From NCBI RefSeq assembly GCF_048403405.1, contig NZ_CP183129.1: DNA of 64,000 nt. One strand, written 5' to 3'. The notes beneath the pieces are model-generated. The model saw only the letters and a list, made by a program, of their open reading frames with translations. It searched no databases and was not told where the DNA came from. Origin of the DNA: Escherichia coli (GTDB taxonomy: Bacteria; Pseudomonadota; Gammaproteobacteria; Enterobacterales; Enterobacteriaceae). Position numbers and translations under genes: made by a program. Position 1 is the stretch's first letter, and every line of letters begins with the position of its first letter. Positions 36,812 through 56,402 of the stretch are shown one piece after another.

Positions 36812-39054
<2,243 letters not shown>

Positions 39055-42508: not shown

Positions 42509-43318
42509 ATGGCAACAACACAACAATCTGGATTTGCACCTGCTGCATCGCCTCTAGCTTCGACCATCGTTCAGACCCTGGACGACGCGATTGTGGCGGG
42601 CTTCACCTCTATCCCTTCACAAGGGGATAACATGCCTGCTTACCATGCCAGACCAAAGCAAAGCGATGGCCCACTGCCAGTGGTCATTGTAGTGCAGGAA
42701 ATTTTTGGCGTGCATGAACATATTCGCGACATTTGTCGCCGTCTGGCGCTGGAGGGGTATCTGGCTATCGCACCTGAACTTTACTTCCGCGAAGGCGATC
42801 CGAATGATTTTGCCGATATCCCCACGTTGCTTAGCGGTCTGGTAGCAAAAGTGCCTGACTCGCAGGTGCTGGCCGATCTCGATCATGTCGCCAGTTGGGC
42901 TTCCCGCAACGGCGGCGATGTTCATCGTTTAATGATCACCGGATTCTGCTGGGGTGGACGTATCACCTGGCTGTATGCCGCGCATAATCCACAGCTAAAA
43001 GCCGCAGTGGCGTGGTACGGCAAACTGACGGGCGATAAGTCGCTGAATTCACCGAAACAACCTGTTGATATCGCAACCGATCTTAACGCGCCGGTTCTCG
43101 GCTTATATGGCGGCCAGGATAACAGCATTTCGCAAGAGAGCGTGGAAACGATGCGCCAGGCGCTGCGGGCAGCAAACGCGAAAGCAGAAATTATCGTGTA
43201 CCCGGATGCAGGGCATGCGTTCAACGCCGATTATCGTCCGAGCTATCATGCCGAGTCTGCGAAAGACGGCTGGCAGCGAATGTTGGAATGGTTTACACAG
43301 TATGGTGTTAAAAAGTAA
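42509..43318 (+). CDS. ysgA: dienelactone hydrolase-family protein (carboxymethylenebutenolidase-like)
   Basis: Starts MATTQQSGFAPAASPLASTIVQTLDDAIVAGF... at the ATG at 42509 with SD GGAGAA; the ORF-track start at 42443 is upstream; divergent from udp as in E. coli. Confidence 0.85.
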   Translation: MATTQQSGFAPAASPLASTIVQTLDDAIVAGFTSIPSQGDNMPAYHARPKQSDGPLPVVIVVQEIFGVHEHIRDICRRLALEGYLAIAPELYFREGDPNDFADIPTLLSGLVAKVPDSQVLADLDHVASWASRNGGDVHRLMITGFCWGGRITWLYAAHNPQLKAAVAWYGKLTGDKSLNSPKQPVDIATDLNAPVLGLYGGQDNSISQESVETMRQALRAANAKAEIIVYPDAGHAFNADYRPSYHAESAKDGWQRMLEWFTQYGVKK

Positions 43319-43574
43319 CGCCATAGTCGCTAAATCTGATGATTAAGCTCACACAATTTCAACGATTTTTTTAATCTCAAAACCATACAGCATCAAAAAA
43401 TTTGTTGCTGTATGCCACTCTTTGACTCCCTTCACATTCGTCATCACACCACCTGCTGAATGCAAAAATTTCGTTGCTGTGCGGCAAACTTTTTTCCTGT
43501 TTTGTGCCGCTTTTCTCCTGAATACTCGTTCTCAGAACAACTGGATCGTTTAAACATCAGACAGGAGATTTACC

Positions 43575-44243
43575 ATGACGCAATCCATTTTTCAGGCTCA
43601 ACCCTTTGAATTACCTTTTGATCCGCGCACAACTGCACTGGTCATGATCGACATGCAGCGTGACTTTGTCGAAGCAGGGGGCTTCGGTGAGGCACTGGGC
43701 AATGATGTTTCACTGGTACGCACGGCTATCGCACCATGTACAGAGGTGCTGGCAGCCGCACGTCAAAAAGGAATTATGGTTATTCATACTCGTGAAGGCC
43801 ATCGTGCAGACTTAAGCGACTGCCCGCCAGCCAAACTGACGCGCGGCGGAAAAACCTTTATTGGTGAACCAGGACCGATGGGACGCATTCTGGTCAGAGG
43901 TGAAGCAGGTCATGACATCATTCCTGAACTGTACCCGGTGGCAGGCGAACCGGTGATTGATAAGCCTGGCAAAGGCGCGTTTTATCAAACCGACTTACAT
44001 CTGATTTTGCAAAACCACGGTATCAAGACGCTGATAGTTTGTGGTGTAACAACCGAAGTTTGCGTAACCACCACCGTGCGCGAAGCAAATGATCGTGGCT
44101 ATGAATGCATTATCCCGGAAGATTGTGTCGGCTCCTATTTCCCGGAATTCCAGAAATACGCCCTCGAGATGATCAAAGCACAAGGTGCCATTTTCGGTTG
44201 GGTTACTGATTCCAAAGCCATTATTGCAGGTCTGGAAGGCTAA
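43575..44243 (+). CDS. isochorismatase-family cysteine amidohydrolase (RutB / biuret hydrolase / N-carbamoylsarcosine amidase-like); first gene of accessory module A
   Basis: 222 aa; SD AGGAG; VMIDMQRDF Asp motif and the C-G-V-T-T-E-V-C-V nucleophile region typical of isochorismatase-like hydrolases; exact enzyme not determinable. Confidence 0.78.
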   Translation: MTQSIFQAQPFELPFDPRTTALVMIDMQRDFVEAGGFGEALGNDVSLVRTAIAPCTEVLAAARQKGIMVIHTREGHRADLSDCPPAKLTRGGKTFIGEPGPMGRILVRGEAGHDIIPELYPVAGEPVIDKPGKGAFYQTDLHLILQNHGIKTLIVCGVTTEVCVTTTVREANDRGYECIIPEDCVGSYFPEFQKYALEMIKAQGAIFGWVTDSKAIIAGLEG

Positions 44244-44248
44244 CGCCG

Positions 44249-45109
44249 ATGGCACAGATTACGCTTTGCGCATCGTCGTTGGGATATCTTTTCCCGCAGA
44301 ATGAAACGCAAGATTTACGTCTGCATAGCGCTTTTAAACATGCGGTAAATCTGTATTCAGAAGCGGGAACATTCATCACTCTGTTGTGTGCGCAAACGTA
44401 TCTGAATCTCCCTGATGCTGCCAGAGTCTGGCTACCTGAATGTTGGGACTGGCGAAGAGAGATTGCCCATTCCGATCCCGTTCAGTTAACCCCAGGCTTA
44501 CTGCAGACACCTCGCTTTTGTGTGGCTCTCGATAACGCAACGCTCTGGCAGCCGTCATTTGTGGGAGGAAGGCTGACACTTGAGGCGTTCCCTTTGGTTT
44601 TCCAGCACTACCCAACGATGGCATCGCAACGGCTTTTATTTTGTCTGGAGCATAACGTTCAAAGCACATTGCACCTGCCGGATAGTCTCACGCACCAGGG
44701 ATTAGCGATTATGGAACATCCAGATGCGCTGGAACGCCAGGTGCCACAACTGATCGGCTTTGGTAAAGGCTTAACGCCCGATGGAGATGACTATTTGTTG
44801 GGCTATCTGGCAGCACTCTGGTTATGGCAACTCCCTGCACCACTTGCCGATCATCAATACCGGTTGCAGCAGGCAATTGATCAACATGCGCACAACACCA
44901 CGGATATCAGTCGTCATTATCTGGAGCGTGCGCTTCAGGGACATTTTTCAGAACCGATTTGCCAGTTACTCGCACAACTGGTTGGGAGCGCATCGGCAAT
45001 GACAATCGCATCCTGTGCAGAACAGGTCATGCAATTTGGCGCAACGTCAGGAGTAGATTGCCTTGCAGGAATGCTGCATGGCTTTCGAACCCTGAACACC
45101 ATGAATTGA
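44249..45109 (+). CDS. DUF2877-like protein (YahE/YlbF-type)
   Basis: 286 aa; 5 nt after the upstream stop; G-rich loop IGFGKGLTPDGDD; family assignment is by size and gene context (recalled family), not by search. Confidence 0.55.
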   Translation: MAQITLCASSLGYLFPQNETQDLRLHSAFKHAVNLYSEAGTFITLLCAQTYLNLPDAARVWLPECWDWRREIAHSDPVQLTPGLLQTPRFCVALDNATLWQPSFVGGRLTLEAFPLVFQHYPTMASQRLLFCLEHNVQSTLHLPDSLTHQGLAIMEHPDALERQVPQLIGFGKGLTPDGDDYLLGYLAALWLWQLPAPLADHQYRLQQAIDQHAHNTTDISRHYLERALQGHFSEPICQLLAQLVGSASAMTIASCAEQVMQFGATSGVDCLAGMLHGFRTLNTMN

Positions 45110-45203
45110 TTTCAACCTTTTCTCCTGTAGCTCATTTATGGCGCTACACGGGGATGCTTTGCCCGAATTTTACTATCGGGCGGAATGAAACAGGCGTAAC
45201 AGC

Positions 45204-46763
45204 ATGAAAGTTAAATATAAAGTTTTCAGTAATCTTTATCAGGACTCAGTTTCTCTGATGCAGATTTCCGCGCAAATCAGCAAGTTGCCCGGTATTCAAC
45301 AGGCCTCGGTCGTCATGGGAACACCCAATAATCTCGAACAATTGCGCGATGCGGGTCTGGGTAACGAAATCAACGCCAGTCCCAATGATTTAGTGATTGC
45401 AGTCATGGGTGAAGAAGATATTTGCAATGAAGCACTGGCACTGGCCCAGCAACGTCTGACCAGCAAACCCGATGATGAAACGGATAGTGGCATTAAAACA
45501 CCGGAAAATGTCAGCCTGGACATGGCACTGGAAGCCGAACCCGAAGCCAACCTGGCACTCATTTCTGTACCGGGAGACTACGCCGCCGCCGAAGCAATTA
45601 AAGCGTTAAACCTCGGAATGAACGTGATGATGTTCAGCGATAACGTCAGTATCGCGCAGGAAAAATCCATCAAAATACTTGCCCGAGAACGTCAGCGCAT
45701 CGTAATGGGACCTGACTGTGGAACCGCCATTGTTAACGGCATTCCGTTAGGCTTCGCTAATGTGGTGAAACGCGGAGCAATTGGTGTTATTGGCGCGTCA
45801 GGCACCGGGCTACAGGAAGTGACTTGCCGAATCGACCAGCTCGGAGCGGGTATTTCTCAGGCGCTGGGAACAGGCGGGCATGATCTCAGTGAAGAGATTG
45901 GTGGAATATCGATGCTCTTCGCTTTAGATGCGCTGGCGCAAGACGATGAAACTCGCGTAATTGTGCTGATTTCAAAACCGCCTTCACCGATCGTTGCCCG
46001 GACTATTCTGGAGCGTGCCGAGGCTTGTGGAAAACCCGTGGTGGTGAATTTCCTCGGTGCGAATCCGCATGATCTGGCACGTCCCAATATCACTGCCGCC
46101 ACCACACTTGCCAGCGCCGCCGACATCGCTGTGGCGTTACTGAATGCTCAGCCACTTCCGGCTGTCGAGACCGAGATTTCCTGCGCCGATCTCACAATGT
46201 TACAAAACGCCTGTCAGCGCCTGCCAGCCCATCGCCAGGCGATACGCGGTGTTTTCGCCGGAGGAACCTTCTGCTACGAAGCGCAACTTATCTGCCAGCA
46301 AAAGGGATTCCGCGCCGCCTCCAATACGCCAGTTGCGAGTAATCGTACTCTGGCAAATATCTGGCAAAGCGAAGATCACACGCTGATCGATATGGGCGAC
46401 GATGATTTCACCCGTGGCAAACCGCATCCAATGATCGACCCGACTCTGCGCAATCAACGTCTGCTCAACGAACTCAACGACTCACACACTGCCGTCGTGT
46501 TATTCGACCTGGTACTTGGTTATGGCGCTTCCGCTACACCTGCCAGCGAATTACTGGACCAACTTTCACACATCGACATGAATAACGCACCGTTGCTGAT
46601 TGCGCACGTTTGCGGAACGGAAGCTGATCCGCAAATACGCAGTCAGCAGATAAGCGCACTACAAAATGCGGGCATCATCATTGCCAGCAGCAATGCACAG
46701 GCGGCGCTATGGGCCAGCGTCGTTGCGCAGACTCAGTTGCAGAAAAAGGGGCTAAACGCATGA
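45204..46763 (+). CDS. FdrA-like protein (NDP-forming acyl-CoA synthetase / succinyl-CoA synthetase alpha-like fold)
   Basis: 519 aa; shares recalled FdrA blocks: QDSVSLM, LALISVPG-YAA, NVMMFSDNV, VMGPDCGT, GVIGASGTG, DMGDDDFTRGKPHPMIDPTLRNQ. Confidence 0.7.
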   Translation: MKVKYKVFSNLYQDSVSLMQISAQISKLPGIQQASVVMGTPNNLEQLRDAGLGNEINASPNDLVIAVMGEEDICNEALALAQQRLTSKPDDETDSGIKTPENVSLDMALEAEPEANLALISVPGDYAAAEAIKALNLGMNVMMFSDNVSIAQEKSIKILARERQRIVMGPDCGTAIVNGIPLGFANVVKRGAIGVIGASGTGLQEVTCRIDQLGAGISQALGTGGHDLSEEIGGISMLFALDALAQDDETRVIVLISKPPSPIVARTILERAEACGKPVVVNFLGANPHDLARPNITAATTLASAADIAVALLNAQPLPAVETEISCADLTMLQNACQRLPAHRQAIRGVFAGGTFCYEAQLICQQKGFRAASNTPVASNRTLANIWQSEDHTLIDMGDDDFTRGKPHPMIDPTLRNQRLLNELNDSHTAVVLFDLVLGYGASATPASELLDQLSHIDMNNAPLLIAHVCGTEADPQIRSQQISALQNAGIIIASSNAQAALWASVVAQTQLQKKGLNA

Positions 46764-48184
46764 ATACCTTATTTAATCAGCCTTTGAAGGTTGTGAACGC
46801 GGGACTACACAGTTTTGCTGACAATATTCAACATGCCGGGGGAAGCGCAATTGCACTCAACTGGCAGCCACCAGCACAAGGCGATATTGACGCTGGATTG
46901 GATCTGGCATCGTTGCTACGTCATCCACTGGTAGAAAATGCCAACCAAATCGCCATGACACGTTATCTCGAAGCACAGCCCGTGCTGGTAGATGTCATGC
47001 TCGCTAAAGAGGCCATTCCAGCAATGGCTGAACAAAAACGTATTTTGCACTCTGGCCCGCCGATTGCCTGGGAAGAGATGTGTGGTCCGGTAAAAGGGGC
47101 GATTATTGGTGCCATGCTGTACGAAGGTTGGGCCACCAGCCAGCAAGACGCTGAAAACCAGATAAACGCAGGCGAAATCGACCTTGCCCCTTGTCATCAT
47201 TATCACGCGGTTGGCCCAATGGCTGGCATCATCAGCCCGTCGATGCCGTTATGGGTGGTAGAAAACAAAACCAACGGCCACCGTACTTTTAGCAATTTCA
47301 ATGAAGGTCTGGGTAAGGTTCTCCGTTTTGGCGCCAATAACGATGAAGTTCTCAATCGTCTGGCCTGGATGCGCGATGAACTGGCGCCGGCAATGAAAGC
47401 AGCAATCGCACAACACGGCGAGCTGGAACTCAAGCCATTAATGGCGCAGGCGCTGCATATGGGGGATGAAGTTCATAACCGCAATGCTGCCGCTACCGGT
47501 TTGCTGATTAAGCGCCTGCTCCCGGCATTGCTGGCCTGCTCTCTTCCACAGGAACATATCCAGCGCGTCGTGGCATTTATCACCGGTAACGATCACTTCT
47601 TCCTCAATCTGTCGATGGCTGCCTGTAAAGCAATGATGGATGCCGCCGCCAATGTACCGTTCAGTTCAATGGTTACGGTGATGGCGCGTAACGGGGTGAA
47701 TTTTGGTATTCGGCTTTCCGGTACTGGCGATCGCTGGTTCCAGGCTCCTGCCAATGCCGTTGAAGGTCTGTTCTTCCCCGGATTTGGCGTTGACGACGCT
47801 GCTGCTGACCTGGGTGATAGCGCAATTACTGAAACCGCAGGTGTGGGTGGCTTCGCGATGGCGTCGTCTCCGGCGATCGTCAAATTTGTGGGAGGCACCC
47901 CTGCCGATGCCACCAATAACAGCCGTCGGATGCAAGCCATCACCCTCGGCGGTAACCCCGCATTTACACTTCCAGCCCTCAATTTTGCCCCCACCGCAGC
48001 AGGGATTGATGCGCGTAAAGTGACCGATCGCGGCATTTTACCGGTCATCAATACGGGTATCGCCCACAAACAAGCGGGGGTCGGGCAAATTGGTGCCGGG
48101 ATCACCACTGCGCCGATGGCCTGTTTTGTCGCCGCTGTACGTGCACTGGCGGAGATCGTCGCAAAGGAGAACCATCATGGTTAA
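46760..48184 (+). CDS. DUF1116-like protein (YlbE/YahG-type)
   Basis: 474 aa from MNTLFNQPLKVVNAGLHSF; ATG overlaps the upstream TGA (ATGA coupling); size and position match the YahG/YlbE partner of FdrA-like proteins (recalled). Confidence 0.6.
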   Translation: MNTLFNQPLKVVNAGLHSFADNIQHAGGSAIALNWQPPAQGDIDAGLDLASLLRHPLVENANQIAMTRYLEAQPVLVDVMLAKEAIPAMAEQKRILHSGPPIAWEEMCGPVKGAIIGAMLYEGWATSQQDAENQINAGEIDLAPCHHYHAVGPMAGIISPSMPLWVVENKTNGHRTFSNFNEGLGKVLRFGANNDEVLNRLAWMRDELAPAMKAAIAQHGELELKPLMAQALHMGDEVHNRNAAATGLLIKRLLPALLACSLPQEHIQRVVAFITGNDHFFLNLSMAACKAMMDAAANVPFSSMVTVMARNGVNFGIRLSGTGDRWFQAPANAVEGLFFPGFGVDDAAADLGDSAITETAGVGGFAMASSPAIVKFVGGTPADATNNSRRMQAITLGGNPAFTLPALNFAPTAAGIDARKVTDRGILPVINTGIAHKQAGVGQIGAGITTAPMACFVAAVRALAEIVAKENHHG

Positions 48185-49133
48185 GCCACTGGCTGTTGTC
48201 GCGGTTGGCGGCAATGCGCTCATTCAGGACGAGCAACGCAATAGTATTCCCGATCAATATGTTGCAGTGATGGAAAGCGTGCAGCATATCGTTGATATGG
48301 TTGAAGCCGGATGGGACCTGGTGCTAACCCACGGTAATGGCCCGCAGGTGGGCTTTATTCTGCGCCGCTCTGAACTCGCCAGTAACGAAGTTTCTCCGGT
48401 TCCACTTGATTACGCCGTGGGTGATACACAAGGTGCAATTGGCTACATGTTCCAGAAAGCGCTGCATTACGAATTGGCTCGCCGTGGCATAAACAAACCG
48501 GTAATTGCCCTGGTGACACAAACGCGAGTCAGCCCACATGACGATGCTTTCGCCAACCCCAGTAAACCGATTGGCGCGTTTCTCGATGAAGCAACGGCCC
48601 AACAACGCCAACAACAACTCGGCTGGACGCTGATGGAGGACGCCGGGCGTGGTTGGCGGCGTACAGTTCCCTCTCCTGCACCACTGGAAATTATTGAGCA
48701 CGACACCATCGCTCACCTGGTGCGCCAGGGATATCTGGTTATTGCCTGCGGCGGCGGCGGTATTCCGGTGGTGCGAGACGGGCAACAACTGAAAGGTGTA
48801 GAAGCCGTGATCGATAAAGATCTGGCCTCCGCGCTGCTCGCCAGTCAGTTAGGCGCAGATCTGCTGGTGATCCCCACCGGTGTAGAAAAAGTGGCGATTA
48901 ACTTTGGTACACCACAACAACAGTGGCTCGACGCTATCAGCGTTGCCGAAGCGCAAACGCTGTTGCGGGAAGGTCAGTTTGGTGTCGGCAGTATGCAACC
49001 CAAAGTGGAAGCCATTGTTGATTTCATCAATGCCAGCCAGCAACAAGGCAAACAGGCCAGCGGCCTGATTACTTCACCGCAAACCATAAAAGCAGCCCTG
49101 GCGCATCAGAGCGGTACATGGATAACCCTTTAA
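48177..49133 (+). CDS. carbamate kinase
   Basis: 318 aa from MVKPLAVVAVGGNALIQDEQ; SD AAGGAGA; carbamate/amino-acid kinase motifs VVAVGGNAL and IACGGGGIPV; start overlaps the upstream gene by 8 nt. Confidence 0.85.
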   Translation: MVKPLAVVAVGGNALIQDEQRNSIPDQYVAVMESVQHIVDMVEAGWDLVLTHGNGPQVGFILRRSELASNEVSPVPLDYAVGDTQGAIGYMFQKALHYELARRGINKPVIALVTQTRVSPHDDAFANPSKPIGAFLDEATAQQRQQQLGWTLMEDAGRGWRRTVPSPAPLEIIEHDTIAHLVRQGYLVIACGGGGIPVVRDGQQLKGVEAVIDKDLASALLASQLGADLLVIPTGVEKVAINFGTPQQQWLDAISVAEAQTLLREGQFGVGSMQPKVEAIVDFINASQQQGKQASGLITSPQTIKAALAHQSGTWITL

Positions 49134-49149
49134 ATCTCTGGAGAACACA

Positions 49150-49539
49150 ATGACTACAACGCTTTTAGCCGTTAACGGAACGCTGATGCGCGGCCTGGAA
49201 CTCAACCCAAATATGAAAAAAGCGGGCGGTATTTTTGTCCGTGAAGACCGAACTGACGCCCATTACCGGTTGTGGAGTATTAACGATCGCCATCCGGGAA
49301 TGATTCGCGTGAATGAAGGAGGAACACACGTCGACGTAGAAATTTGGCAATTACCGCTGGCCAGTTTTGCCGCTCTGTTAATGAGCGAACCCGCTGGGCT
49401 GGCAATTGGCAAAATCAAACTTGCCGATGGTAGCGAAGTGCTGGGCGTACTGGCAGAAAACTGGCTGACCGAAGGCCAACGGGAAATTACAGAACTGGGC
49501 GGCTGGCGCAAATACACCGGGCATTTTCATACTGTGTAA
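49150..49539 (+). CDS. small GGCT/AIG2-like protein (gamma-glutamyl cyclotransferase-like fold), function unknown
   Basis: 129 aa; N-terminal LLAVNGTLMRG resembles the YGSL/GTLxxG motif of AIG2/GGCT-like proteins; weak, motif-based. Confidence 0.45.
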   Translation: MTTTLLAVNGTLMRGLELNPNMKKAGGIFVREDRTDAHYRLWSINDRHPGMIRVNEGGTHVDVEIWQLPLASFAALLMSEPAGLAIGKIKLADGSEVLGVLAENWLTEGQREITELGGWRKYTGHFHTV

Positions 49540-49564
49540 CGCGCATTTATAAAGGGAACATACT

Positions 49565-50788
49565 ATGCGTAAAAAAGAAGAGAATCTGAATACGGCATCA
49601 GGATTGCGTATTGCCATGATTTTGCTGGGTATTGCCGTCACACCTGTGCTGTTGTCATCCTCAAGCCTCGGCAATCAACTTTCCAGCGGCAGTTTAATTA
49701 GCGTCGTATTGTTAGGCGGCGTCATTCTGACCTTACTTTCAGCCATCACCATTAGCGTGGGAGAAAAAGCCCGCCTGCCAACGTATGGCATTGTGAAATA
49801 TTCGTTTGGCGAAAAAGGGGCCATCGCCATTAACATTTTGATGGCGATAAGTCTGTTCGGCTGGATTGCCGTTACCGCCAATATGTTTGGTCATTCGGTA
49901 CATGACTTACTGGCTCAACATGGACTGGAAGTTCCACTGGCACTGTTAGTGGCGGCTGGCTGTGTCATTTTTGTCGCCTCTACGGCATTTGGCTTTGCCG
50001 TTCTGGGAAAAATTGCCCAGGTTGCCGTGCCGGTTATCGCGCTGGTGCTGTGTTACATCCTCTATGTGGCAACCCATACCGAAGTGGCAGTACCAGCGGC
50101 GATTGTGGAGATGAATACAGGTGTCGCCGTTTCCACCGTTGTTGGCACCATTATTGTGCTGGTTGCCACACTGCCTGATTTCGGTAGTTTTGTGCATAAC
50201 CGCAAACATGCACTGATTGCCGCAGGCGTGACGTTTCTGGTTGCCTACCCTCTGCTCTACTGGGCGGGTGCAACGCCGAGCGCCATTAGTGGTCAGGGAT
50301 CTTTACTGGGTGCGATGGCGGTATTCGGTGCGGTTCTGCCTGCGGCGCTGTTGTTGATTTTCGCCTGCGTCACCGGTAACGCGGGCAATATGTTCCAGGG
50401 CACGCTGGTGGTTTCCACACTGCTTACCCGCTTTCCCAAATGGCAGATTACCGTGGCGCTGGGTATCCTTTCCGCCATCGTAGGCAGTATGGATATTATG
50501 GCGTGGTTTATTCCGTTTCTGCTGTTCCTGGGTATCGCCACGCCACCCGTTGCCGGAATTTATATCGCTGACTTTTTCCTTTATCGCCGTAATGGCTATC
50601 AAGAGTCAGTGTTAGCCCAGGAGTCACAGATTAAAGTGCTGACATTCGCAGCATGGATCATAGGCGCAGCGGTTGGCTTTATGACCGTAAAAGGCTTATT
50701 CACCCTGACGACGATCCCTTCGGTAGACTCGATTCTGGTGGCATGTATCGCGTATGCGATTCTCAGTCGGGCAAGTCAACACCGCTAA
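49565..50788 (+). CDS. NCS1-family permease (CodB-like nucleobase/cytosine-type transporter)
   Basis: 407 aa, multi-TM; C-terminal block IPPVAGIYIADFFLYRRNGY closely resembles the recalled CodB IPPVGGVIIADYLMNRRRYE. Confidence 0.75.
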   Translation: MRKKEENLNTASGLRIAMILLGIAVTPVLLSSSSLGNQLSSGSLISVVLLGGVILTLLSAITISVGEKARLPTYGIVKYSFGEKGAIAINILMAISLFGWIAVTANMFGHSVHDLLAQHGLEVPLALLVAAGCVIFVASTAFGFAVLGKIAQVAVPVIALVLCYILYVATHTEVAVPAAIVEMNTGVAVSTVVGTIIVLVATLPDFGSFVHNRKHALIAAGVTFLVAYPLLYWAGATPSAISGQGSLLGAMAVFGAVLPAALLLIFACVTGNAGNMFQGTLVVSTLLTRFPKWQITVALGILSAIVGSMDIMAWFIPFLLFLGIATPPVAGIYIADFFLYRRNGYQESVLAQESQIKVLTFAAWIIGAAVGFMTVKGLFTLTTIPSVDSILVACIAYAILSRASQHR

Positions 50789-50865
50789 TTCCTGGGTATA
50801 CTCAGGCAATGATTACGGCTGAATCTGGAGAGATTCAGCCACTTTACCACTGACCAGGGAGCCTT

Positions 50866-51771
50866 ATGTTCATCTCAGACGAAACGCTTCGTGTTATTCA
50901 TCTGGTCGCCAGACACCAGAGCATTACCATCGCAGCCGAGCAGTTAAATAAAGTCCCTTCCGCCATCAGTTACACCATCAAGAAAGCGGAAGAGAGCCTG
51001 GGCGTTGAACTGTTCATTCGTAAGGGACGCTATATTGAATTATCGCCAGCGGGAAGTTACTTCATCGAACATAGCAAAACTATTCTTGGCGACCTGGAAG
51101 CATTAAAGCGCAACACAGTGCTGATTCACGATGGTATTGAGCGTGAACTGACAATTGCGGTAAACAATATTATTCCTGGTAATTTGCTGGTGGCATTTAT
51201 TCGAGATTTTGAACGGCAATTCACATCAACAACACTGACGGTAGATCTTGAGGTATACAACGGCTGCTGGGATGCGCTGTACAGTAAGCGTGCTGATCTG
51301 GTCTACGGTGCTCCTCATGCAGTACCAAGTAGTGAAGGCATCATTAGCGAACCGGTCGGACAAATGGAATGGGATTTTGTCGTCAGCCCACTCCACCCAC
51401 TGGCAGCGAAGCGGCATCCATTAGAAAACAGTGAATTGCGTCATTATCCAGCGGTTTGTATCCGCGATACCTCCGTTAACTTCCCCCCGATGCAAGCCTG
51501 GTTGTTGGAAGGACAAAAACCCATTTTTGTTCCTGACTTCGCTACGGCAATCGCCTTAATAGAACAAAACGTCGGTATTGGTTATATTCCACATCATCTG
51601 GCATTGCCGTTATTGAACAGCGGTAAATTGCTTAAAAAGCCAATGCGCGAACATAAACACGCCACCAAGTTATTTCTTGCCGCTCGTTCCGATGGTATGG
51701 GCAAAGCCTGTCAGTGGTGCATAGAATATTTAAGAAACCCGCAATTAATGACACGATTTGTATTTAATTGA
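50866..51771 (+). CDS. LysR-family transcriptional regulator
   Basis: 301 aa; N-terminal wHTH (SITIAAEQLNKVPSAISYTIKKAEESLGVELFIRKGR) and LysR substrate-binding domain; SD GGGAG. Confidence 0.85.
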   Translation: MFISDETLRVIHLVARHQSITIAAEQLNKVPSAISYTIKKAEESLGVELFIRKGRYIELSPAGSYFIEHSKTILGDLEALKRNTVLIHDGIERELTIAVNNIIPGNLLVAFIRDFERQFTSTTLTVDLEVYNGCWDALYSKRADLVYGAPHAVPSSEGIISEPVGQMEWDFVVSPLHPLAAKRHPLENSELRHYPAVCIRDTSVNFPPMQAWLLEGQKPIFVPDFATAIALIEQNVGIGYIPHHLALPLLNSGKLLKKPMREHKHATKLFLAARSDGMGKACQWCIEYLRNPQLMTRFVFN

Positions 51772-51970
51772 CAATACAATGATAAAAATATAAGTCTTGC
51801 TTTAATTAGAGCGCCCGTTTAAATTATTTTTGTGCAGTTGACGTAACTCATGAAAATTAACCGGTCTGTTAATCATTACGTTCACTGCACACCTTCATTT
51901 TTTCACACCTATCCACGCCTGAAAACTATGTTATAATCAGCACTTTCTGTCAGAATGAAATTTACTAATT

Positions 51971-52816
51971 ATGAATAACATAACCGTAAAAAGTCTGATT
52001 CAAAGCAATTACCCTACACTGCATCAGGCGGAAAAAAAGGTCGCCGACTATATTCTTAGCCACGCACATGAAGTCGTGAACTATAGTGTCACTGAACTAT
52101 CAGAAAAAAGCCATGCCAGTGAAGCGACTATCGTGCGCACCTGTAAGAAATTAGGTTATCAGGGTTATTACCATTTAAAAATTGCATTAGCAAAAGAAGT
52201 CATTAATCCTGACAATAGCTATCCTGATAATACCGATTTTACCGATATAACGTCGCTGGCCACATTTTTATTAAAAAAACAGGCCGAAGATTTAATACAA
52301 TCAACGCAATTTTTTAATGCCGAAGTGCTTGAGTCCATTCTCAAACTACTTGCTAATTGCGATACTATTTTCTTTTTTGCTGCCGGAAATTCAAACCCTC
52401 TGGCCGTTTATGGTGCTTATAAATTCAGCCAACTCGGATTAAAAACCGTTGTTCACGTCAGCCCGGAAATGCAAATTAATGCGGCATATTCTATGGGGAA
52501 ACGCGACCTGGCGATTGGTATTTCTAACTCTGGCAGCACCAACTTAATGGTCGATATCTTTAAAGTGGTGAAAGAGCGCGGTGCCAAATCCGTTTGTATC
52601 ACTAACTATATTAAATCTCCGTTATCAAAACTCTCCACCCATCAACTCAATACCGCGGTCAGCGATAAAATCTTCTTTGAAGCCTTCGACTCCACTCGCG
52701 TTCCGGCAATGGGCGTTATTGATATGCTGGTGCTGTTGTTTATGTATAAAAACAAGGCGCATTACGAGAAATACCGCACCCGTGAAGAGTTTCTCGGCTC
52801 CCGTTTCAAGGGGTAA
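51971..52816 (+). CDS. RpiR/MurR-family transcriptional regulator (HTH plus SIS domain)
   Basis: 281 aa MNNITVKSLIQSNYPTLHQAEKKVADYILSH...; HTH_6 then SIS sugar-phosphate-binding domain. Confidence 0.85.
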   Translation: MNNITVKSLIQSNYPTLHQAEKKVADYILSHAHEVVNYSVTELSEKSHASEATIVRTCKKLGYQGYYHLKIALAKEVINPDNSYPDNTDFTDITSLATFLLKKQAEDLIQSTQFFNAEVLESILKLLANCDTIFFFAAGNSNPLAVYGAYKFSQLGLKTVVHVSPEMQINAAYSMGKRDLAIGISNSGSTNLMVDIFKVVKERGAKSVCITNYIKSPLSKLSTHQLNTAVSDKIFFEAFDSTRVPAMGVIDMLVLLFMYKNKAHYEKYRTREEFLGSRFKG

Positions 52817-52838
52817 AAGGTCATCCTTTCACCCCTTG
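52807..52838. terminator. bidirectional stem-loop between convergent rpiR-like and transketolase genes
   Basis: CAAGGGGTAAAAGG-tcat-CCTTTCACCCCTTG (14-bp stem, one mismatch); the left arm includes the rpiR stop codon. Confidence 0.55.
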
Positions 52839-52845
52839 TGCAGGT

Positions 52846-54843
52846 TTAGCTATTCAGTAGCTCACGCGCCTGCGCCAGGACATTTTCCGGCGTAAAACCA
52901 AAGTGTTTGAACAACACATTCGCCGGAGCAGACTCACCAAAGCTCGTCATCCCAATGACTTTACCATCCAGACCGACGTAGCGTTCCCAGAATCCGGCGA
53001 TGCTGGCTTCTACCGCCAGACGTTTGCGTACAGCTTTTGGCAATACCGATTCTTTGTACGCCGCATCCTGATTATCGAAACGCTCGGTACACGGCATGGA
53101 AACTACGCGAACTTTACGCCCTTCTTCCGTTAACGCTTTTGCGGCGCTGACCACTAACTCAATCTCTGAACCCGCAGAAATGAGGATCATCTCAGGCTGA
53201 CCGTCACAATCACTCAGTACATAACCACCACGCGCAATCTCTGCCAACTGTGCAGCGGTGCGCGGCTGTTGCGCCAGCGGTTGGCGCGTTAATACCAACG
53301 ACGTTGGGCCATCTTTGCGCTCAATCGCCTGTTGCCAGGCCACCGCCACTTCCACCTGATCGCAACCGCGCCAGGTTTCCATATTCGGCGTCAGACGCAG
53401 CGACGCCAGTTGCTCAACGGGCTGATGTGTCGGGCCGTCTTCGCCCAGGCCGATGGTATCGTGGGTATAAACAAACACCGAGCGGATCTTCATCAGCGCC
53501 GCCATGCGCAGTGCATTACGCGCATATTCCATAAACATCAGGAAAGTACCGCCGTAAGGGATAAACCCACCATGCAGCGCAAGACCGTTCATGATGGCCG
53601 ACATACCAAATTCACGCACGCCATAGGAGATGTAATTCCCCGCCGGATTTTCCCCGGTGAAATCAACCGATTTCTGATGGCGAGTCAGGTTAGAGGGCGA
53701 CAAGTCCGCCGAGCCGCCCATCAGTTCCGGCAGCATATCAGCGAAGTGATTGAGGCATTTCTGGCTGACCTGACGGGTTGCCAGCGCCGCCGGATGGGAT
53801 TGCAGATCGTGCACATATTTCTGCATATTCTCGGCCCAGCCAGCAGGCAAATCACCCTTCATGCGACGAGTAAACTCCGCCGCCAGTTCCGGCCACTGCT
53901 TCGCGTAGTCAGCAAACAGTGCATCCCATTCCTGTTGAACCTGCGCGCCTTTCTCGGTCGCATCCCATTCGGCATAAATTTCACCAGGAATTTCGAAAGG
54001 GGCATACGGCCATTGCAGACGTTCACGCACCAGCGCCACTTCATCTGCACCCAGCGCCGAGCCGTGGCAATCGTGGCTGTTGGCTTTATTTGGTGAACCA
54101 AAACCGATAATCGTTTTGCAGCACAGCAGACTGGGCTTATCCGTGACGCTTTTCGCTTCACGCACCGCAGCATCTACCGCTTCTGGATCGTGACCATCAA
54201 CGCCTTCAATGACATGCCAGCCGTAGGCACGAAAACGGGCAGCCGTATCTTCAGCGAACCAGCCTTCTACGTGACCATCGATCGAAATACCGTTATCGTC
54301 CCAGATAGCAATCAGATTGCCGAGCTTCAGCGTTCCTGCAAGACCACAGGCCTCGTGGGAGATCCCTTCCATCAGGCAGCCATCACCCAAAAATAGCCAT
54401 GTGTGATGATCAACAATATTAAAGCCCGGTTTGTTAAATTCTGCCGCCAGCGCCTTCTCCGCAATCGCCATCCCCACCGCATTAGCTACGCCCTGCCCCA
54501 ACGGGCCGGTGGTGGTTTCAACACCCGGCGTATAACCATATTCTGGATGACCCGGCGTGCGGGAGTGGAGCTGACGAAAGTCGCGAATATCATCCATCGA
54601 CAGGTCGTAGCCTGTAAGATGCAGCAAAGCGTAAATCAACATGGAGCCGTGACCGTTCGACTGAACATAGCGGTCGCGGTTAAACCACTGCGGATTTTTT
54701 GGGTTATGACGCAGGTGACGACGCCAGACCACTTCGGCAATATCCGCCATCCCCATCGGCGCGCCCGGATGACCGGAGTTCGCTTTCTGGATCGCATCAA
54801 CACTTAACATTCGGATGGCATTAGCCAGTAATTGTGAATTCAT
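52846..54843 (-). CDS. transketolase (third paralogue, distinct from TktA/TktB)
   Basis: 665 aa [44 protein letters not shown]...; TPP-binding [10 protein letters not shown]; diverged from recalled TktA/TktB (identity not computed). Confidence 0.93.
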
Positions 54844-54893
54844 ACTTCAGCTCTCTCTGTCTGGCGGGCTGAAACCAGCCCGCTAATCTCGAA

Positions 54894-56402
54894 TTAGTTA
54901 GCACAGGCCACTGTCATTTCTGTCGGGCGCGGTCTGCTCATTACGGTTTTAATTTCGTCGCGCAGGATTTGCGATTTGCCGCCAAATATCACCTGTACAC
55001 CGCCATCACCCAGTTTCACTAACCCCGCAGCCCCCAACTCCTTCAGCCGTTTTTCATTCACTTTCTTATCGTCTACCAGCGCCAGCCTCAGGCGTGTTGC
55101 GCAGGCATCCACATCTTCGATATTGTCGAAACCACCTACTGCTTCGATGATTTGGTATGGACGTTCTTCGCGCGTTAATGTGGTTGCAACGGCAATCTCT
55201 TCATCCTCACGTCCCGGTGTTTTCAGATTCAACTTGCGGATCAGTACCCGAAATACGGTGTAGTAAATCGCTGCATAGCCCGCGCCTGCCAGGAACACCA
55301 GATACCACGGCGTGCGGTTTGGCATAACGCCATTCAGTACGAAATCAATAAGACCGCCAGCAAAAGGATGACCAATGTGCACATTCAGGATGTTCATCAG
55401 CACAAATGAAGTGGCATATAAGAAGATGTGAATGATGTAGAGAACCGGAGCTGCAAACAAAAATGCATATTCCAGCGGCTCCGTAATCCCGGTAACAAAT
55501 GTGGTCAGCGCACCGGAGAGTAAAAGGCCTTTAATCAGCGCCTTACGTTCCGGTTTTGCTTCCTGATACATCGCCAACGCGGCGGCAGGTAACGCAAACA
55601 TCATGATCGGGAAACGACCTGTCATAAACAGCCCCGCCGTCAACGGAACACCGTCGCGCAATTGGGCAAAGAACACCGGAATATCGCCCGTCACCAGTTG
55701 CCCGGATTTGGTCATGTAGTCGCCAAAGTTGTAATAAAACGGCACGTTCCAGATATGATGCAGGCCAAAAGGAATCAGCGAACGTTCGCCAACGGCGTAA
55801 ATAAAGGCCGCGAAGTTCGCGTTATGCCCACTGGTCACCAGCGTTGAAAGCGACGCCAGACCTTTTTGTACCGGTATCCACAGCCACGGCAATAAATAGC
55901 CGACAATAATTGCCGCCACCGCCGTAATAATCGGTACAAAGCGTTTTCCACCGAAGAAACCAAGAAACTGAGGCAATTCAATATTGTGGAAGCGGGTATA
56001 GAGCAGATAAACAAAGATGGCGACAATCAAACCGCCAAACACTCCCGTTTGTAACGTCGGTACCCCGAGGATCATCGCATAGTCACCGTTACTGGCTGCA
56101 ACGGACTCCGCGGTAATGCCAAGTTGCGTTCCCATCGTGGCATTCATGATCATGTAACTGATAATCGCTGAAAGTGATGAAGAACCATCACCTGTCAGGC
56201 CAATCACAATACCGACACAAAACAGCAAAGGAAGGTTGGCGAAAATCAGGCCGCCGCAATTCGCCAGCAGCTCAATGTTAAATGAAATCCCGATGGCTAA
56301 AATCAAACCCGCCGCCGGAAGAATGGCGATTGGTAACATCAGAGCAGAAGAAAATTTCTGCAACTTCTTGAAGTTAAACAAGGATGTTATTTTTTTGCTC
56401 AT
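54894..56402 (-). CDS. PTS glucose-family EIICB component
   Basis: 502 aa; EIIC motif GITEPLEYAF; C-terminal EIIB phospho-cysteine motif DACATRLRLALVD; SD CAGGAGAA; no EIIA domain or gene nearby. Confidence 0.9.
   Translation of the reverse strand: MSKKITSLFNFKKLQKFSSALMLPIAILPAAGLILAIGISFNIELLANCGGLIFANLPLLFCVGIVIGLTGDGSSSLSAIISYMIMNATMGTQLGITAESVAASNGDYAMILGVPTLQTGVFGGLIVAIFVYLLYTRFHNIELPQFLGFFGGKRFVPIITAVAAIIVGYLLPWLWIPVQKGLASLSTLVTSGHNANFAAFIYAVGERSLIPFGLHHIWNVPFYYNFGDYMTKSGQLVTGDIPVFFAQLRDGVPLTAGLFMTGRFPIMMFALPAAALAMYQEAKPERKALIKGLLLSGALTTFVTGITEPLEYAFLFAAPVLYIIHIFLYATSFVLMNILNVHIGHPFAGGLIDFVLNGVMPNRTPWYLVFLAGAGYAAIYYTVFRVLIRKLNLKTPGREDEEIAVATTLTREERPYQIIEAVGGFDNIEDVDACATRLRLALVDDKKVNEKRLKELGAAGLVKLGDGGVQVIFGGKSQILRDEIKTVMSRPRPTEMTVACAN

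What the first reader, a model, noticed from the sequence alone, without database searches (positions are those of the whole stretch)
46760..48184. Translational coupling across the FdrA-like, DUF1116 and carbamate kinase genes
The DUF1116 start overlaps the FdrA-like stop (ATGA at 46760-46763) and the carbamate kinase ATG at 48177 overlaps the DUF1116 3' end by 8 nt. Hydrolase to DUF2877 is separated by 5 nt. Such coupling is typical of subunits made in fixed stoichiometry and supports the three proteins acting as a complex that hands its product directly to carbamate kinase. A small stem-loop (GCCCGA...TCGGGC, 45161-45181) sits in the only sizeable gap, between the DUF2877 and FdrA-like genes.
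Basis: seen in the sequence. Interest (0 to 1): 0.4.

Follow-up and report, generated by a model that had tools for sequence, protein, structure and literature searches.

The report
Overlapping genes in a carbamoyltransferase operon
Three neighbouring E. coli genes do overlap at their stop and start codons; this ordinary operon design fits two of them (FdrA-like and DUF1116/AllG-like) being subunits of one enzyme, but it does not show that carbamate kinase joins the complex.

Summary
Every coordinate in the finding is correct. NCBI's annotation and conserved protein N-termini support the same start codons.

The window is the E. coli ExPEC "tkt1 island". The genes belong to a conserved eight-gene module:
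- TrtA-like cysteine hydrolase
- AllH-like (DUF2877)
- AllF/FdrA-like
- AllG-like (DUF1116)
- carbamate kinase
- AH_C domain protein
- NCS1 permease
- LysR regulator

It is an uncharacterised paralogue of the published AllFGH oxamate carbamoyltransferase plus AllK kinase.

**FdrA-like/DUF1116 pair.** The gap is -4, -1 or at most +16 nt in 28 species. A complex is supported by evidence other than the overlap:
- Natural single-chain fusions exist.
- The break point between the two polypeptides moves by about 54 residues between paralogues.
- An AlphaFold model of the joined chain has pTM 0.86.
- AllF and AllG co-purify.

**DUF1116/kinase pair.** The overlap is kept in 25 of 29 orthologues but not in the paralogues. 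Nothing supports channelling to the kinase.

**DUF2877.** It is not coupled to FdrA and is missing from six orthologous operons.

**Stem-loop.** It is a real 9-bp hairpin, conserved in Enterobacterales, and is not a terminator.

The coupling itself is ordinary. The more interesting lead is that the hydrolase carries the full triuret-hydrolase signature.

The parts
43575..44243 (+). First gene of the operon: an isochorismatase-like cysteine hydrolase of TrtA (triuret hydrolase) type. It is followed by a 5-nt spacer (44244-44248).
   Evidence: Best PDB match is Herbaspirillum TrtA 6XIX (270.6 bits, 58.7% identity), ahead of BiuH 6AZO (237.5 bits). The catalytic D26/K130/C163 and all six TrtA-versus-BiuH discriminating residues are TrtA-type. 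The same holds in all 26 other hydrolase sequences from the fetched loci (a second E. coli strain and 25 other species). The NCBIfam BiuH model scores 279.8 bits, below its cutoff of 370.
44249..45109 (+). AllH-family (formerly DUF2877) gene, 5 nt after the hydrolase stop.
   Evidence: Pfam PF11392 AllH, E 5.4e-27. PGAP names it 'oxamate carbamoyltransferase subunit AllH family protein'. An AllH-like ORF is absent from 6 orthologous operons.
45121..45154 (+). Hairpin 1 in the 94-nt AllH-to-FdrA intergenic region.
   Evidence: RNA fold of 45107-45210: -30.7 kcal/mol, z = -2.69, 2 of 200 shuffles fold as well. A hairpin at the equivalent place, with a different sequence, occurs in Citrobacter, Rahnella and Serratia.
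45158..45184 (+). It ends 19 nt before the FdrA-like ATG and has no T-run after it.
   Evidence: RNAalifold on 13 Enterobacterales sequences predicts the same helix. In that alignment 92.3% of cells are paired, 2 pairs show compensatory changes (8 cells; 1 of 500 shuffles reaches this), and the covariation score is 0.386 against 0.277 (4 of 500). The stem is invariant between E. coli lineages, with the one substitution in the loop. It is not called a terminator and has no Rfam match.
45204..46763 (+). AllF/FdrA-like subunit gene. It has its own weak SD (AGG at 45192-45194; conserved ACAGGTA in orthologues).
   Evidence: NCBIfam PRK06091 FdrA, 497 bits (cutoff 433). Pfam CoA_binding + Ligase_CoA. 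PDB 3DMY, E 3.4e-85.
46746..46751 (+). SD-like AAGGGG for the DUF1116/AllG-like gene, embedded in the last codons of the FdrA-like gene.
   Evidence: Sequence. A GGAG/GGGA-type motif sits at the same position in orthologues.
46760..46763 (+). ATGA: the start codon of the AllG-like gene overlaps the FdrA-like stop codon (-4).
   Evidence: Across 28 species the gap is -4 in 11, -1 in 4, and +4 to +16 in 13.
46760..48184 (+). AllG-like (DUF1116) subunit gene. Its first ~55 residues are homologous to the C-terminal tail of K-12 AllF.
   Evidence: Pfam PF06545 AllG, E 8.6e-99. PDB 3CLQ, E 4.3e-120, aligned from residue 57. Residues 6-42 match the C-terminal end of the FdrA profile. The concatenated alignment shows the shifted break point.
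48164..48169 (+). SD AAGGAG for the carbamate kinase gene, inside the 3' end of the AllG-like gene.
   Evidence: Sequence. A GGAG-like purine-rich motif sits at this position in most Enterobacterales orthologues and is weaker in Caballeronia.
48177..48184 (+). 8-nt overlap of the kinase ATG (48177-48179) with the last codons and TAA stop (48182-48184) of the AllG-like gene.
   Evidence: In orthologues the gap is -4 in 22 species, -8 only in E. coli, -16 and -1 once each, and +10 or +18 in 4.
48177..49133 (+). Catabolic-type carbamate kinase gene.
   Evidence: NCBIfam TIGR00746 arcC, 365.8 bits (cutoff 358.25), and PRK12352, 375.4 bits.
49150..49539 (+). Stand-alone protein made of the allophanate hydrolase C-terminal domain (AH_C), 16 nt after the kinase.
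   Evidence: Pfam PF21986 AH_C, E 8.2e-42. It matches positions 472-595 of 600 in the NCBIfam allophanate hydrolase model.
49565..50788 (+). NCS1-family (CodB-like) permease, last structural gene of the module.
   Evidence: NCBIfam PRK11017, 145.7 bits, below its cutoff. Conserved in this position in orthologous operons.
50866..51771 (+). LysR-type regulator that travels with the module.
   Evidence: Best NCBIfam hits are PunR (285.9 bits) and AllS (213.6 bits), both below cutoff. Present with the operon on plasmids.

Best explanation
**What it is.** The overlaps are real, inherited features of one polycistronic catabolic operon: hydrolase, AllH-like, AllF-like, AllG-like, carbamate kinase, AH_C and permease. 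This is a mobile eight-gene module, counting its LysR gene. It is a paralogue of the E. coli allFGHK genes for oxamate carbamoyltransferase and carbamate kinase.

**How the coupling most likely works (inferred).**
- A ribosome finishing the FdrA-like ORF at UGA 46761-46763 can reinitiate at AUG 46760-46762, helped by the embedded AAGGGG.
- A ribosome finishing the AllG-like ORF at UAA 48182-48184 can reinitiate at AUG 48177-48179, helped by AAGGAG.
- Both start regions are also accessible to fresh initiation, so the coupling is facilitated rather than enforced.

**FdrA-like and AllG-like proteins.** For this pair the coupling serves equimolar, possibly co-translational, assembly of two halves of one enzyme. 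In other organisms these halves are a single polypeptide or are split at a different point.

**Carbamate kinase.** This overlap reflects tight co-expression of consecutive pathway steps. It does not demonstrate a physical complex or channelling.

**AllH-like protein.** It is expressed from a separate translational unit, coupled to the hydrolase. It is separated from the FdrA-like gene by a 94-nt spacer with two hairpins, so its amount need not match the other two.

**Shown here:** the coordinates, conservation, fusions, shifted split site and family memberships.
**Inferred:** reinitiation itself, subunit stoichiometry, and any role of the hairpins.
For: **Coordinates and starts.**

**Conservation of the junctions across species**.
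- FdrA-like to AllG-like: never more than 16 nt in 28 species, overlapping in 15.
- AllG-like to kinase: overlapping in 25 of 29.
- SD-like motifs embedded upstream of both starts.

**The FdrA-like and AllG-like proteins form one enzyme.**
- Searching 1.84 billion representatives with the concatenated pair returns full-length single-chain homologues as the top hits: P0121 (1007 aa, query 4-982 in one stretch), then P0122-P0126, P0131 and P0139.
- P0121 and P0123 have the Pfam architecture HMA_AllF_N + CoA_binding + Ligase_CoA + AllG. P0123 lies on a 28-kb contig and is followed by an AllH gene.
- The split point is at alignment column 530 in this operon and in yahF/yahG, but at column 584 in allF/allG. 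The summed lengths are 993, 987 and 974 aa.
- Both split types recur among the representatives.
- AF2 of the concatenation: mean pLDDT 93.5 and pTM 0.86. The only long disordered stretch is at the junction, residues 510-523.
- Published for the paralogue: untagged AllG co-elutes with His-AllF, and the two are seen in similar amounts (PMC11326118).

**General rules from the literature.** Coupling needs overlaps or very short gaps. Such pairs are 4.5-fold enriched for subunits of heteromeric complexes (PMC10666635).

**Single transcription unit.** No terminator or promoter consensus falls in the spacers between the hydrolase and the permease. The paralogous allFGHK genes are co-transcribed.
Against: - Nothing here measures translation.
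- Both downstream genes have their own SD. Their start regions are not more structured than the others: mean unpaired probability is 0.65 for AllG-like and 0.47 for the kinase, against 0.50 for the FdrA-like gene. Independent initiation could therefore account for all expression.
- In Caballeronia, Burkholderia, Limnobaculum and a Klebsiella plasmid, the same FdrA-like and AllG-like genes are 4-16 nt apart. At those distances reinitiation is weak, so the overlap is not required for function.
- K-12 allF and allG are 9 nt apart.
- The AF2 model is a single-chain prediction whose alignment contains natural fusions, and only the global pTM is available, not the interface.
Confidence: 0.7

Rival explanations
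1. The overlaps are neutral by-products of gene packing in an operon. Each cistron is initiated independently from its own SD, and the overlaps carry no information about complexes.
For: - In E. coli, 24% of same-strand pairs lie at -8 to +6 nt, and 69.6% of close pairs do not encode complex subunits.
- 6 of 20 neighbour pairs around this locus are that close.
- Both downstream genes have SDs and open start regions.
- Thirteen orthologous operons have 4-16-nt spacers between the FdrA-like and AllG-like genes, and K-12 allF/allG has 9 nt.
Against: - The junctions stay at or below 16 nt (FdrA-like to AllG-like) and mostly overlapping (AllG-like to kinase) across Entero- and Burkholderiales. Other spacers in the same operon vary from 10 to 127 nt.
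- The FdrA-like and AllG-like proteins are independently shown to belong together.
Confidence: 0.2
2. One reading: the FdrA-like, DUF1116 and DUF2877 proteins and carbamate kinase form a metabolon that channels labile carbamoyl phosphate straight to the kinase.
For: - The AllG-like/kinase overlap is kept in 25 of 29 orthologues.
- allH and allK also overlap by ATGA in K-12.
- Carbamoyl phosphate is chemically labile (my own knowledge), so channelling would be useful.
- AF2 of the AllG-like protein joined to the kinase gives pTM 0.69, which does not exclude contact.
Against: - yahG and yahI are separated by 421 nt.
- The kinase is distant or absent in more remote FdrA/AllG loci (L032-L036, L041).
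- No kinase fusion appears among the 150 best relatives or the 120 kinase homologues.
- Purified AllFGH and purified AllK are each active alone. Loss of allK has only a slight effect, which the authors suggest is probably because carbamoyl phosphate feeds other pathways.
- A pTM of 0.69 is close to the ~0.65 I estimate for two well-folded but unplaced domains of 474 and 318 residues (inference).
- DUF2877 is not coupled and is dispensable in 6 operons.
Confidence: 0.12
3. The hairpins in the AllH-to-FdrA spacer are a functional RNA element. Candidate roles are a processing or stability element, or an insulator of the FdrA-like ribosome-binding site. They would uncouple expression of the hydrolase/AllH pair from the FdrA-like/AllG-like/kinase genes. 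They are neither a terminator nor a chance palindrome.
For: - The spacer folds better than shuffles (z = -2.69).
- The same helix is predicted from 13 Enterobacterales sequences, with compensatory changes and variable loop length.
- The stem is invariant between E. coli lineages while the loop varies.
- A hairpin before the FdrA-like SD persists in operons that lost AllH.
- The spacer is always 36-127 nt, whereas the other junctions are tight.
Against: - Across 26 loci the mean folding z-score is only -0.73. It is not significantly different from coding controls (Wilcoxon p = 0.24 and 0.09).
- Several orthologues lack a convincing hairpin (L015, L022, L031).
- There is no U-tract, no Rfam family and no promoter or terminator consensus.
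- The sequences are related, so the covariation counts are inflated.
- A 6-bp stem is expected by chance in roughly one of six such spacers (my estimate).
Confidence: 0.4

Closest known systems
AllFGH oxamate carbamoyltransferase with AllK carbamate kinase (E. coli K-12 b0518-b0521; Kim & Kim 2022 and 2024, PMC9843812 and PMC11326118)
   Same: - The same four protein families are present (FdrA/AllF, AllG/DUF1116, AllH/DUF2877, carbamate kinase), in one operon.
- The pathway logic would be the same: phosphorolysis of an N-carbamoyl compound to carbamoyl phosphate, then ATP formation.
- AllF and AllG co-purify.
   Different: - This is a paralogue, not an orthologue: 44% identity over the concatenated pair.
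- Gene order is H-F-G-K rather than F-G-H-K.
- The F/G polypeptide break lies ~54 residues earlier.
- The junctions are -4 and -8 here, against +9, +10 and -4 in K-12.
- There are no allantoin genes nearby. The partners are a TrtA-type hydrolase, an AH_C protein and an NCS1 permease, so the substrate is probably not oxalurate.
YahE-YahF-YahG and YahI cluster of E. coli K-12 (b0319-b0323), uncharacterised
   Same: - Gene order is H-F-G.
- The F/G split point is the same (column 530).
- F and G overlap tightly (-1).
   Different: - Only 44.5% identical.
- yahE overlaps yahF by 11 nt, rather than being 94 nt away.
- The kinase yahI lies 421 nt downstream.
- It is accompanied by an ankyrin protein and the YahJ amidohydrolase, not a TrtA-like hydrolase.
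Triuret pathway TrtA-(TrtB)-BiuH-AtzF of Herbaspirillum sp. BH-1 and Rhizobium leguminosarum (Tassoulas et al. 2021, PMC7948467)
   Same: The first enzyme here is 58.7% identical to TrtA. It has the catalytic triad, the substrate-binding residues and all six residues that separate TrtA from BiuH.
   Different: - The module has no BiuH, no AtzF amidase domain and no TrtB.
- In their place it has the AllFGH-like enzyme, carbamate kinase and a stand-alone AH_C domain.
- Co-location of trtA/biuH with allFGHK and codB has been reported for comammox and archaeal ammonia oxidisers, but was read as two separate pathways (PMC12625717).
Overlapping gene pairs translationally coupled by termination-reinitiation (Huber et al. 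2019 and 2023, PMC6728339 and PMC10666635)
   Same: The gaps of -4 and -8 nt are the first and third most common classes in E. coli. The SD is embedded in the upstream ORF. The pair encodes subunits of a heteromer.
   Different: Nothing differs in kind. Coupling has not been measured for this pair.

Membership tests
AllFGH-type carbamoyltransferase operon | AllF/FdrA subunit (NCBIfam PRK06091; CoA_binding + Ligase_CoA domains) | tested here: met
   497 bits against a cutoff of 433. Pfam domains confirmed. PDB 3DMY, E 3.4e-85.
AllFGH-type carbamoyltransferase operon | AllG subunit (Pfam PF06545, formerly DUF1116) | tested here: met
   E 8.6e-99. PDB 3CLQ, E 4.3e-120.
AllFGH-type carbamoyltransferase operon | AllH subunit (Pfam PF11392, formerly DUF2877) | tested here: met
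   E 5.4e-27. However, no AllH-like ORF is found in 6 orthologous operons.
AllFGH-type carbamoyltransferase operon | Catabolic carbamate kinase in the same operon | tested here: met
   TIGR00746, 365.8 bits against a cutoff of 358.25. The kinase is adjacent in 29 orthologous loci.
AllFGH oxamate carbamoyltransferase proper (orthologue of b0518-b0520) | Orthology to AllF/AllG and linkage to allantoin genes (allB/C/D/E) | tested here: not met
   41-47% identity to AllF and AllG. The neighbours are a TrtA-like hydrolase, AH_C and an NCS1 permease, with no all genes.
AllFGH oxamate carbamoyltransferase proper (orthologue of b0518-b0520) | Oxalurate + phosphate gives carbamoyl phosphate + oxamate | not testable with these tools
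   This needs an enzyme assay.
Obligate FdrA-like/AllG-like heteromer | Fused single-chain homologues and a variable split site (Rosetta-stone criterion) | tested here: met
   At least 8 full-length fusions matching in one stretch. Pfam architecture and contig context confirmed for two. Shifted split site. AF2 pTM 0.86.
Translational coupling by termination-reinitiation | Same-strand pair at -8 to +6 nt with an SD in the upstream ORF | tested here: met
   Gaps of -4 and -8, with AAGGGG and AAGGAG embedded upstream.
Translational coupling by termination-reinitiation | Translation of the downstream gene depends on translation of the upstream gene | not testable with these tools
   Folding shows no occlusion of the downstream start regions, so dependence cannot be inferred.
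TrtA triuret hydrolase | Catalytic Asp/Lys/Cys triad, plus Lys132, Gln202 and Glu72 | tested here: met
   D26, K130, C163, K133, Q203 and E74.
TrtA triuret hydrolase | Six residues that distinguish TrtA from BiuH (F35, N41, A134, E160, Y187, I205) | tested here: met
   F37, N43, A135, E161, Y188 and I206. These are identical in all 26 other hydrolase sequences from the fetched loci, while the archaeal L042 homologue is BiuH-type.
TrtA triuret hydrolase | Specific hydrolysis of triuret to carboxybiuret | not testable with these tools
   This needs an enzyme assay.
Intrinsic (Rho-independent) terminator | GC-rich stem immediately followed by a U-run | tested here: not met
   The stem is followed by GGAATGAAACAGG. 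The scan does not call it.
Any curated RNA family (Rfam 15) | Covariance-model match in 43200-52000 | tested here: not met
   The only match is a chance-level one (E 0.75), located elsewhere.

The most novel reading that the evidence does not exclude
The module may encode an undescribed phosphorolytic, ATP-yielding route for triuret or a related polyureide. It occurs in 29% of complete E. coli genomes and on 82 conjugative plasmids.

Proposed steps:
1. The NCS1 permease imports the compound.
2. The TrtA-type hydrolase makes 1-carboxybiuret. This has the same H2N-CO-NH-CO-X-COO- skeleton as oxalurate, the AllFGH substrate.
3. The AllFGH-like enzyme transfers the terminal carbamoyl group to phosphate. 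It may then do the same with allophanate.
4. Carbamate kinase turns each carbamoyl phosphate into ATP, NH3 and CO2.
5. The AH_C protein handles a carboxylated intermediate.

This route would replace the BiuH/AtzF steps that the module lacks. It would let urease-negative ExPEC use a urate-oxidation product reported in human urine (PMC7948467).
Probability: 0.35. Interest if true: 0.65.

Novelty: new member of a known kind. Interest (0 to 1): 0.33.

Why it matters
The coupling adds little that is new. It is the expected layout for an AllFGH-type enzyme, whose multi-subunit nature was published in 2024.

Two results are useful beyond the finding.
- The fusion proteins and the shifted split site are sequence-level proof that the FdrA-like and DUF1116 proteins are two halves of one enzyme. 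This should guide structural work on this new class of carbamoyltransferase, and it shows that DUF2877 is the loosely attached, sometimes dispensable part.
- The module pairs this enzyme with a hydrolase carrying the complete triuret-hydrolase signature, and it lacks the known downstream enzymes. That gives a concrete, testable substrate hypothesis for an uncharacterised, mobile, ExPEC-associated operon.

Tried and rejected
- **Rfam scan of 43200-52000.** It gave one chance-level hit elsewhere and nothing in the spacer.
- **Promoter and terminator scan.** No site falls in any spacer of the operon on the + strand. The counts do not exceed those from shuffled sequence.
- **Structure-enforced coupling.** I tested whether the downstream start regions are sequestered in structure. 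They are not; the AllG-like start is the most open in the operon.
- **Folding z-scores upstream of the FdrA-like SD.** Across 26 loci the mean is -0.73, not significantly different from coding controls. I therefore rely only on the Enterobacterales subset and give the hairpin modest confidence.
- **Hairpin as a LysR-type operator.** Rejected because the spacing between the conserved outer half-sites varies from about 10 to 15 nt between genera.
- **Classifying split types from the MAFFT alignment A2.** This was unreliable because AllG-only rows were scattered. I used the phmmer coordinates instead.
- **Apparent -2387 'fusion' in L030.** This was a script artefact. The FdrA-like gene there ends in TAA, 16 nt before the AllG-like gene.
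- **Literature search on the AH_C domain.** It returned nothing usable. I recall a proposed role in decarboxylating N-carboxycarbamate, but I could not verify it here.
- **AF2 of the AllG-like protein joined to the kinase.** It gave pTM 0.69, which is inconclusive.
- **Conserved -1 frameshift site.** I considered that G AAA AAG at 46742-46748 might be a conserved site making an F-G fusion. The motif is not conserved in orthologues.

Full report
**Where the window comes from.** Region 43500-49600 is 100% identical to several E. coli chromosomes. It is present in 1559 of 5426 complete E. coli genomes. It lies between ysgA/udp and metE. This is the 16-kb "tkt1 island" (GR 29), associated with phylogroup B2 ExPEC (PMC12928451). 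The same seven structural genes also occur at about 95% identity on 82 conjugative plasmids. One of these, the Klebsiella plasmid pLYS105A-1, carries just the seven genes plus the LysR gene, with identical junctions.

**The observation.** All coordinates are correct.
- ATGA at 46760-46763 joins the FdrA-like ORF (45204-46763) and the DUF1116 ORF (46760-48184).
- The kinase ATG at 48177 lies 8 nt inside the end of DUF1116 (TAA at 48182-48184).
- The hydrolase and DUF2877 are 5 nt apart.
- GCCCGA...TCGGGC is at 45161-45181, in the 94-nt DUF2877-to-FdrA spacer.

PGAP uses the same starts. Orthologues from 28 other species align from residue 1 of these products. The longer mechanical ORFs starting at 46709 and 48090 are therefore not the genes. 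SD-like motifs sit inside the upstream ORFs: AAGGGG at 46746-46751 and AAGGAG at 48164-48169. Equivalent motifs occur in the orthologues.

**Is it more than chance?** As a pattern, no.
- In E. coli, -4 is the most common same-strand distance, followed by -1 and -8. In total, 24% of such pairs lie at -8 to +6 nt (PMC10666635).
- Around this locus, 6 of 20 annotated same-strand pairs are that close, including ubiJ/ubiB at -4.

What goes beyond chance is conservation across 29 species-level orthologous loci from Enterobacterales and Burkholderiales.
- FdrA-like to AllG-like: -4 in 11, -1 in 4, and +4 to +16 in 13.
- AllG-like to kinase: -4 in 22, -8 only in E. coli, -16 and -1 once each, +10 or +18 in 4.
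- DUF2877 to FdrA-like: always 36-127 nt.

**What the genes are.**
- FdrA-like: NCBIfam FdrA, 497 bits, above cutoff; Pfam CoA_binding + Ligase_CoA.
- DUF1116: Pfam PF06545, now named AllG.
- DUF2877: Pfam PF11392, now named AllH.
- Carbamate kinase: passes the arcC equivalog cutoff.

Kim & Kim showed that the K-12 paralogues fdrA-ylbE-ylbF encode oxamate carbamoyltransferase (AllFGH) and that ybcF encodes its carbamate kinase (AllK). The four genes are co-transcribed. Untagged AllG co-purifies with His-AllF, whereas AllH tagged alone does not retain the others (PMC11326118, PMC9843812). The window genes are a third E. coli paralogue set. The concatenated FdrA-like/AllG-like pair is 44% identical to both AllF/AllG and YahF/YahG.

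**Independent evidence that the FdrA-like and AllG-like proteins are one enzyme.**
- The N-terminus of the window AllG-like protein matches the C-terminal end of the FdrA profile.
- Aligning the concatenated pairs shows the chain break at column 530 here and in yahF/yahG, but at column 584 in allF/allG. A ~54-residue segment therefore belongs to either polypeptide, and the total lengths are conserved (993, 987 and 974 aa).
- Searching 1.84 billion representative proteins with the concatenation puts full-length single-chain homologues at the top. These are P0121-P0126, P0131 and P0139, each 1003-1095 aa and matching in one stretch across the junction. Both split types also appear.
- P0121 and P0123 have the Pfam architecture HMA_AllF_N + CoA_binding + Ligase_CoA + AllG. 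P0123 is on a 28-kb contig and is followed by an overlapping AllH gene.
- AF2 of the window concatenation gives mean pLDDT 93.5 and pTM 0.86. Disorder is confined essentially to the junction, residues 510-523. I estimate about 0.6 if the two halves were unplaced relative to each other.
- Foldseek finds 3CLQ for the AllG half and 3DMY plus ACD/SCS-alpha for the FdrA half. No solved structure spans both.

The ATGA therefore sits in a linker of what is elsewhere one polypeptide. Equimolar coupled synthesis is a sensible reading of that.

**Limits on the coupling inference.**
- Both downstream start regions are predicted to be open, so nothing forces dependence on upstream translation.
- Thirteen orthologues and K-12 allF/allG have 4-16-nt spacers. 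Coupling falls off steeply over that range.
- Only 30.4% of close E. coli pairs encode subunits of a complex.

**Carbamate kinase.** The overlap is conserved in orthologues, but not in the paralogues.
- yahG and yahI are 421 nt apart, and in K-12 the kinase follows allH.
- The kinase is remote or absent in more distant FdrA/AllG loci.
- No kinase fusions were seen.
- AllFGH and AllK are each active alone. Deleting allK has little effect, which the authors suggest is probably because carbamoyl phosphate is consumed elsewhere.
- AF2 of the AllG-like protein joined to the kinase gives pTM 0.69, close to my ~0.65 estimate for unplaced domains.

Direct hand-over of the product is therefore unsupported, though not excluded.

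**DUF2877/AllH.**
- It is translationally adjacent to the hydrolase: 1-6 nt in 13 of 18 loci.
- It is the fastest-evolving gene in the operon.
- It is absent from six otherwise intact operons. In five of these the hydrolase is followed directly by the FdrA-like gene.

**The stem-loop.**
- It extends to 9 bp (45158-45184) and follows a second hairpin (45121-45154). The spacer folds with z = -2.69.
- RNAalifold on 13 Enterobacterales sequences recovers the same helix. Two positions change compensatorily and the loop length varies.
- Between E. coli lineages only the loop differs.
- It has no U-run, is not called a terminator, and matches no Rfam family.
- Across all 26 loci the structural signal is weak.

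A role in mRNA processing or stability, or in insulating the FdrA-like ribosome-binding site, is a low-confidence inference.

**Context that changes the biology.**
- The first gene is closest to Herbaspirillum triuret hydrolase TrtA (58.7% identity), ahead of BiuH.
- It carries the catalytic triad and all six residues that Tassoulas et al. used to separate TrtA from BiuH. So do all 26 other hydrolase sequences from the fetched loci.
- The module has no BiuH, no AtzF amidase domain and no TrtB. It has only a stand-alone AH_C domain.
- The TrtA product, carboxybiuret, is a close analogue of oxalurate and decays with a half-life of about 20 min.
- The substrate of this AllFGH-like enzyme may therefore be carboxybiuret or allophanate rather than oxalurate. 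This is a hypothesis.
- Co-location of trtA/biuH with allFGHK and codB has been noted in nitrifier genomes but was interpreted as two pathways. I found no paper that links this E. coli island to triuret.

**Verdict.** The coupling is ordinary, and the operon is a new, uncharacterised member of the AllFGH/AllK kind.

Noticed in passing
window 43575-44243: The 'cysteine hydrolase' has the complete triuret hydrolase (TrtA) signature and not the biuret hydrolase one. The module lacks BiuH, AtzF and TrtB. This suggests a triuret or carboxybiuret substrate for the AllFGH-like enzyme.
   Followed up: partly
window 46760-46930, compared with L002 7190-7348: The first ~55 residues of the DUF1116 protein are homologous to the C-terminal tail of K-12 AllF, so the gene boundary has moved between paralogues. 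Single-chain F-G fusions exist in metagenomes.
   Followed up: yes
L008, L013, L020, L021, L022, L030 (interval between the hydrolase and the FdrA-like gene): Six orthologous operons have no AllH/DUF2877-like ORF within about 8 kb, yet they keep the hydrolase, the FdrA-like and AllG-like genes, the kinase, AH_C and the permease. L008 has an 870-nt non-coding remnant in that place.
   Followed up: partly
window 46742-46748: G AAA AAG lies 12 nt before the ATGA. It resembles the dnaX-type A AAA AAG -1 frameshift heptamer (my own knowledge). The DUF1116 frame is the -1 frame and is open from 46709, so a slip here would produce an F-G fusion protein. The motif is shared only with Citrobacter L026 and is not conserved elsewhere, so it is probably incidental.
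   Followed up: partly
window 43575-51771; plasmid locus L048: The operon occurs on 82 conjugative IncF-type plasmids of E. coli and Klebsiella at about 95% identity. In the one plasmid examined (pLYS105A-1), the eight-gene module is present without the tkt1/ptsG/hxlB part of the chromosomal island.
   Followed up: partly
window 49150-49539: A 129-aa protein consists only of the allophanate hydrolase C-terminal domain (AH_C), with no amidase domain anywhere in the module. It is conserved directly after the kinase in orthologues. Its function is unknown.
   Followed up: no
window 38449-38452 (- strand): ubiJ and ubiB overlap by the same 4 nt, and tatA/B/C are 2-3 nt apart. This shows how common such junctions are in this window.
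   Followed up: yes
window 51971-56000 (RpiR regulator +; tkt1, ptsG-like, hxlB-like on - strand): The rest of the island encodes an RpiR regulator, the transketolase Tkt1, a glucose-type PTS IIBC component and a 6-phospho-3-hexuloisomerase. This is a separate sugar-phosphate module, unrelated to the carbamoyl module.
   Followed up: no
window 46916-47206, 47593-48108 and 47666-47935 (- strand): Antisense ORFs of 96, 171 and 89 aa lie inside the DUF1116 gene. PGAP does not annotate them and I did not test them. They are probably chance ORFs.
   Followed up: no
L036, L037, L038: In some Clostridia and Oscillospiraceae genomes, two DUF1116/AllG paralogues lie in tandem. In L037 and L038 no FdrA-like gene was detected next to them.
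   Followed up: no
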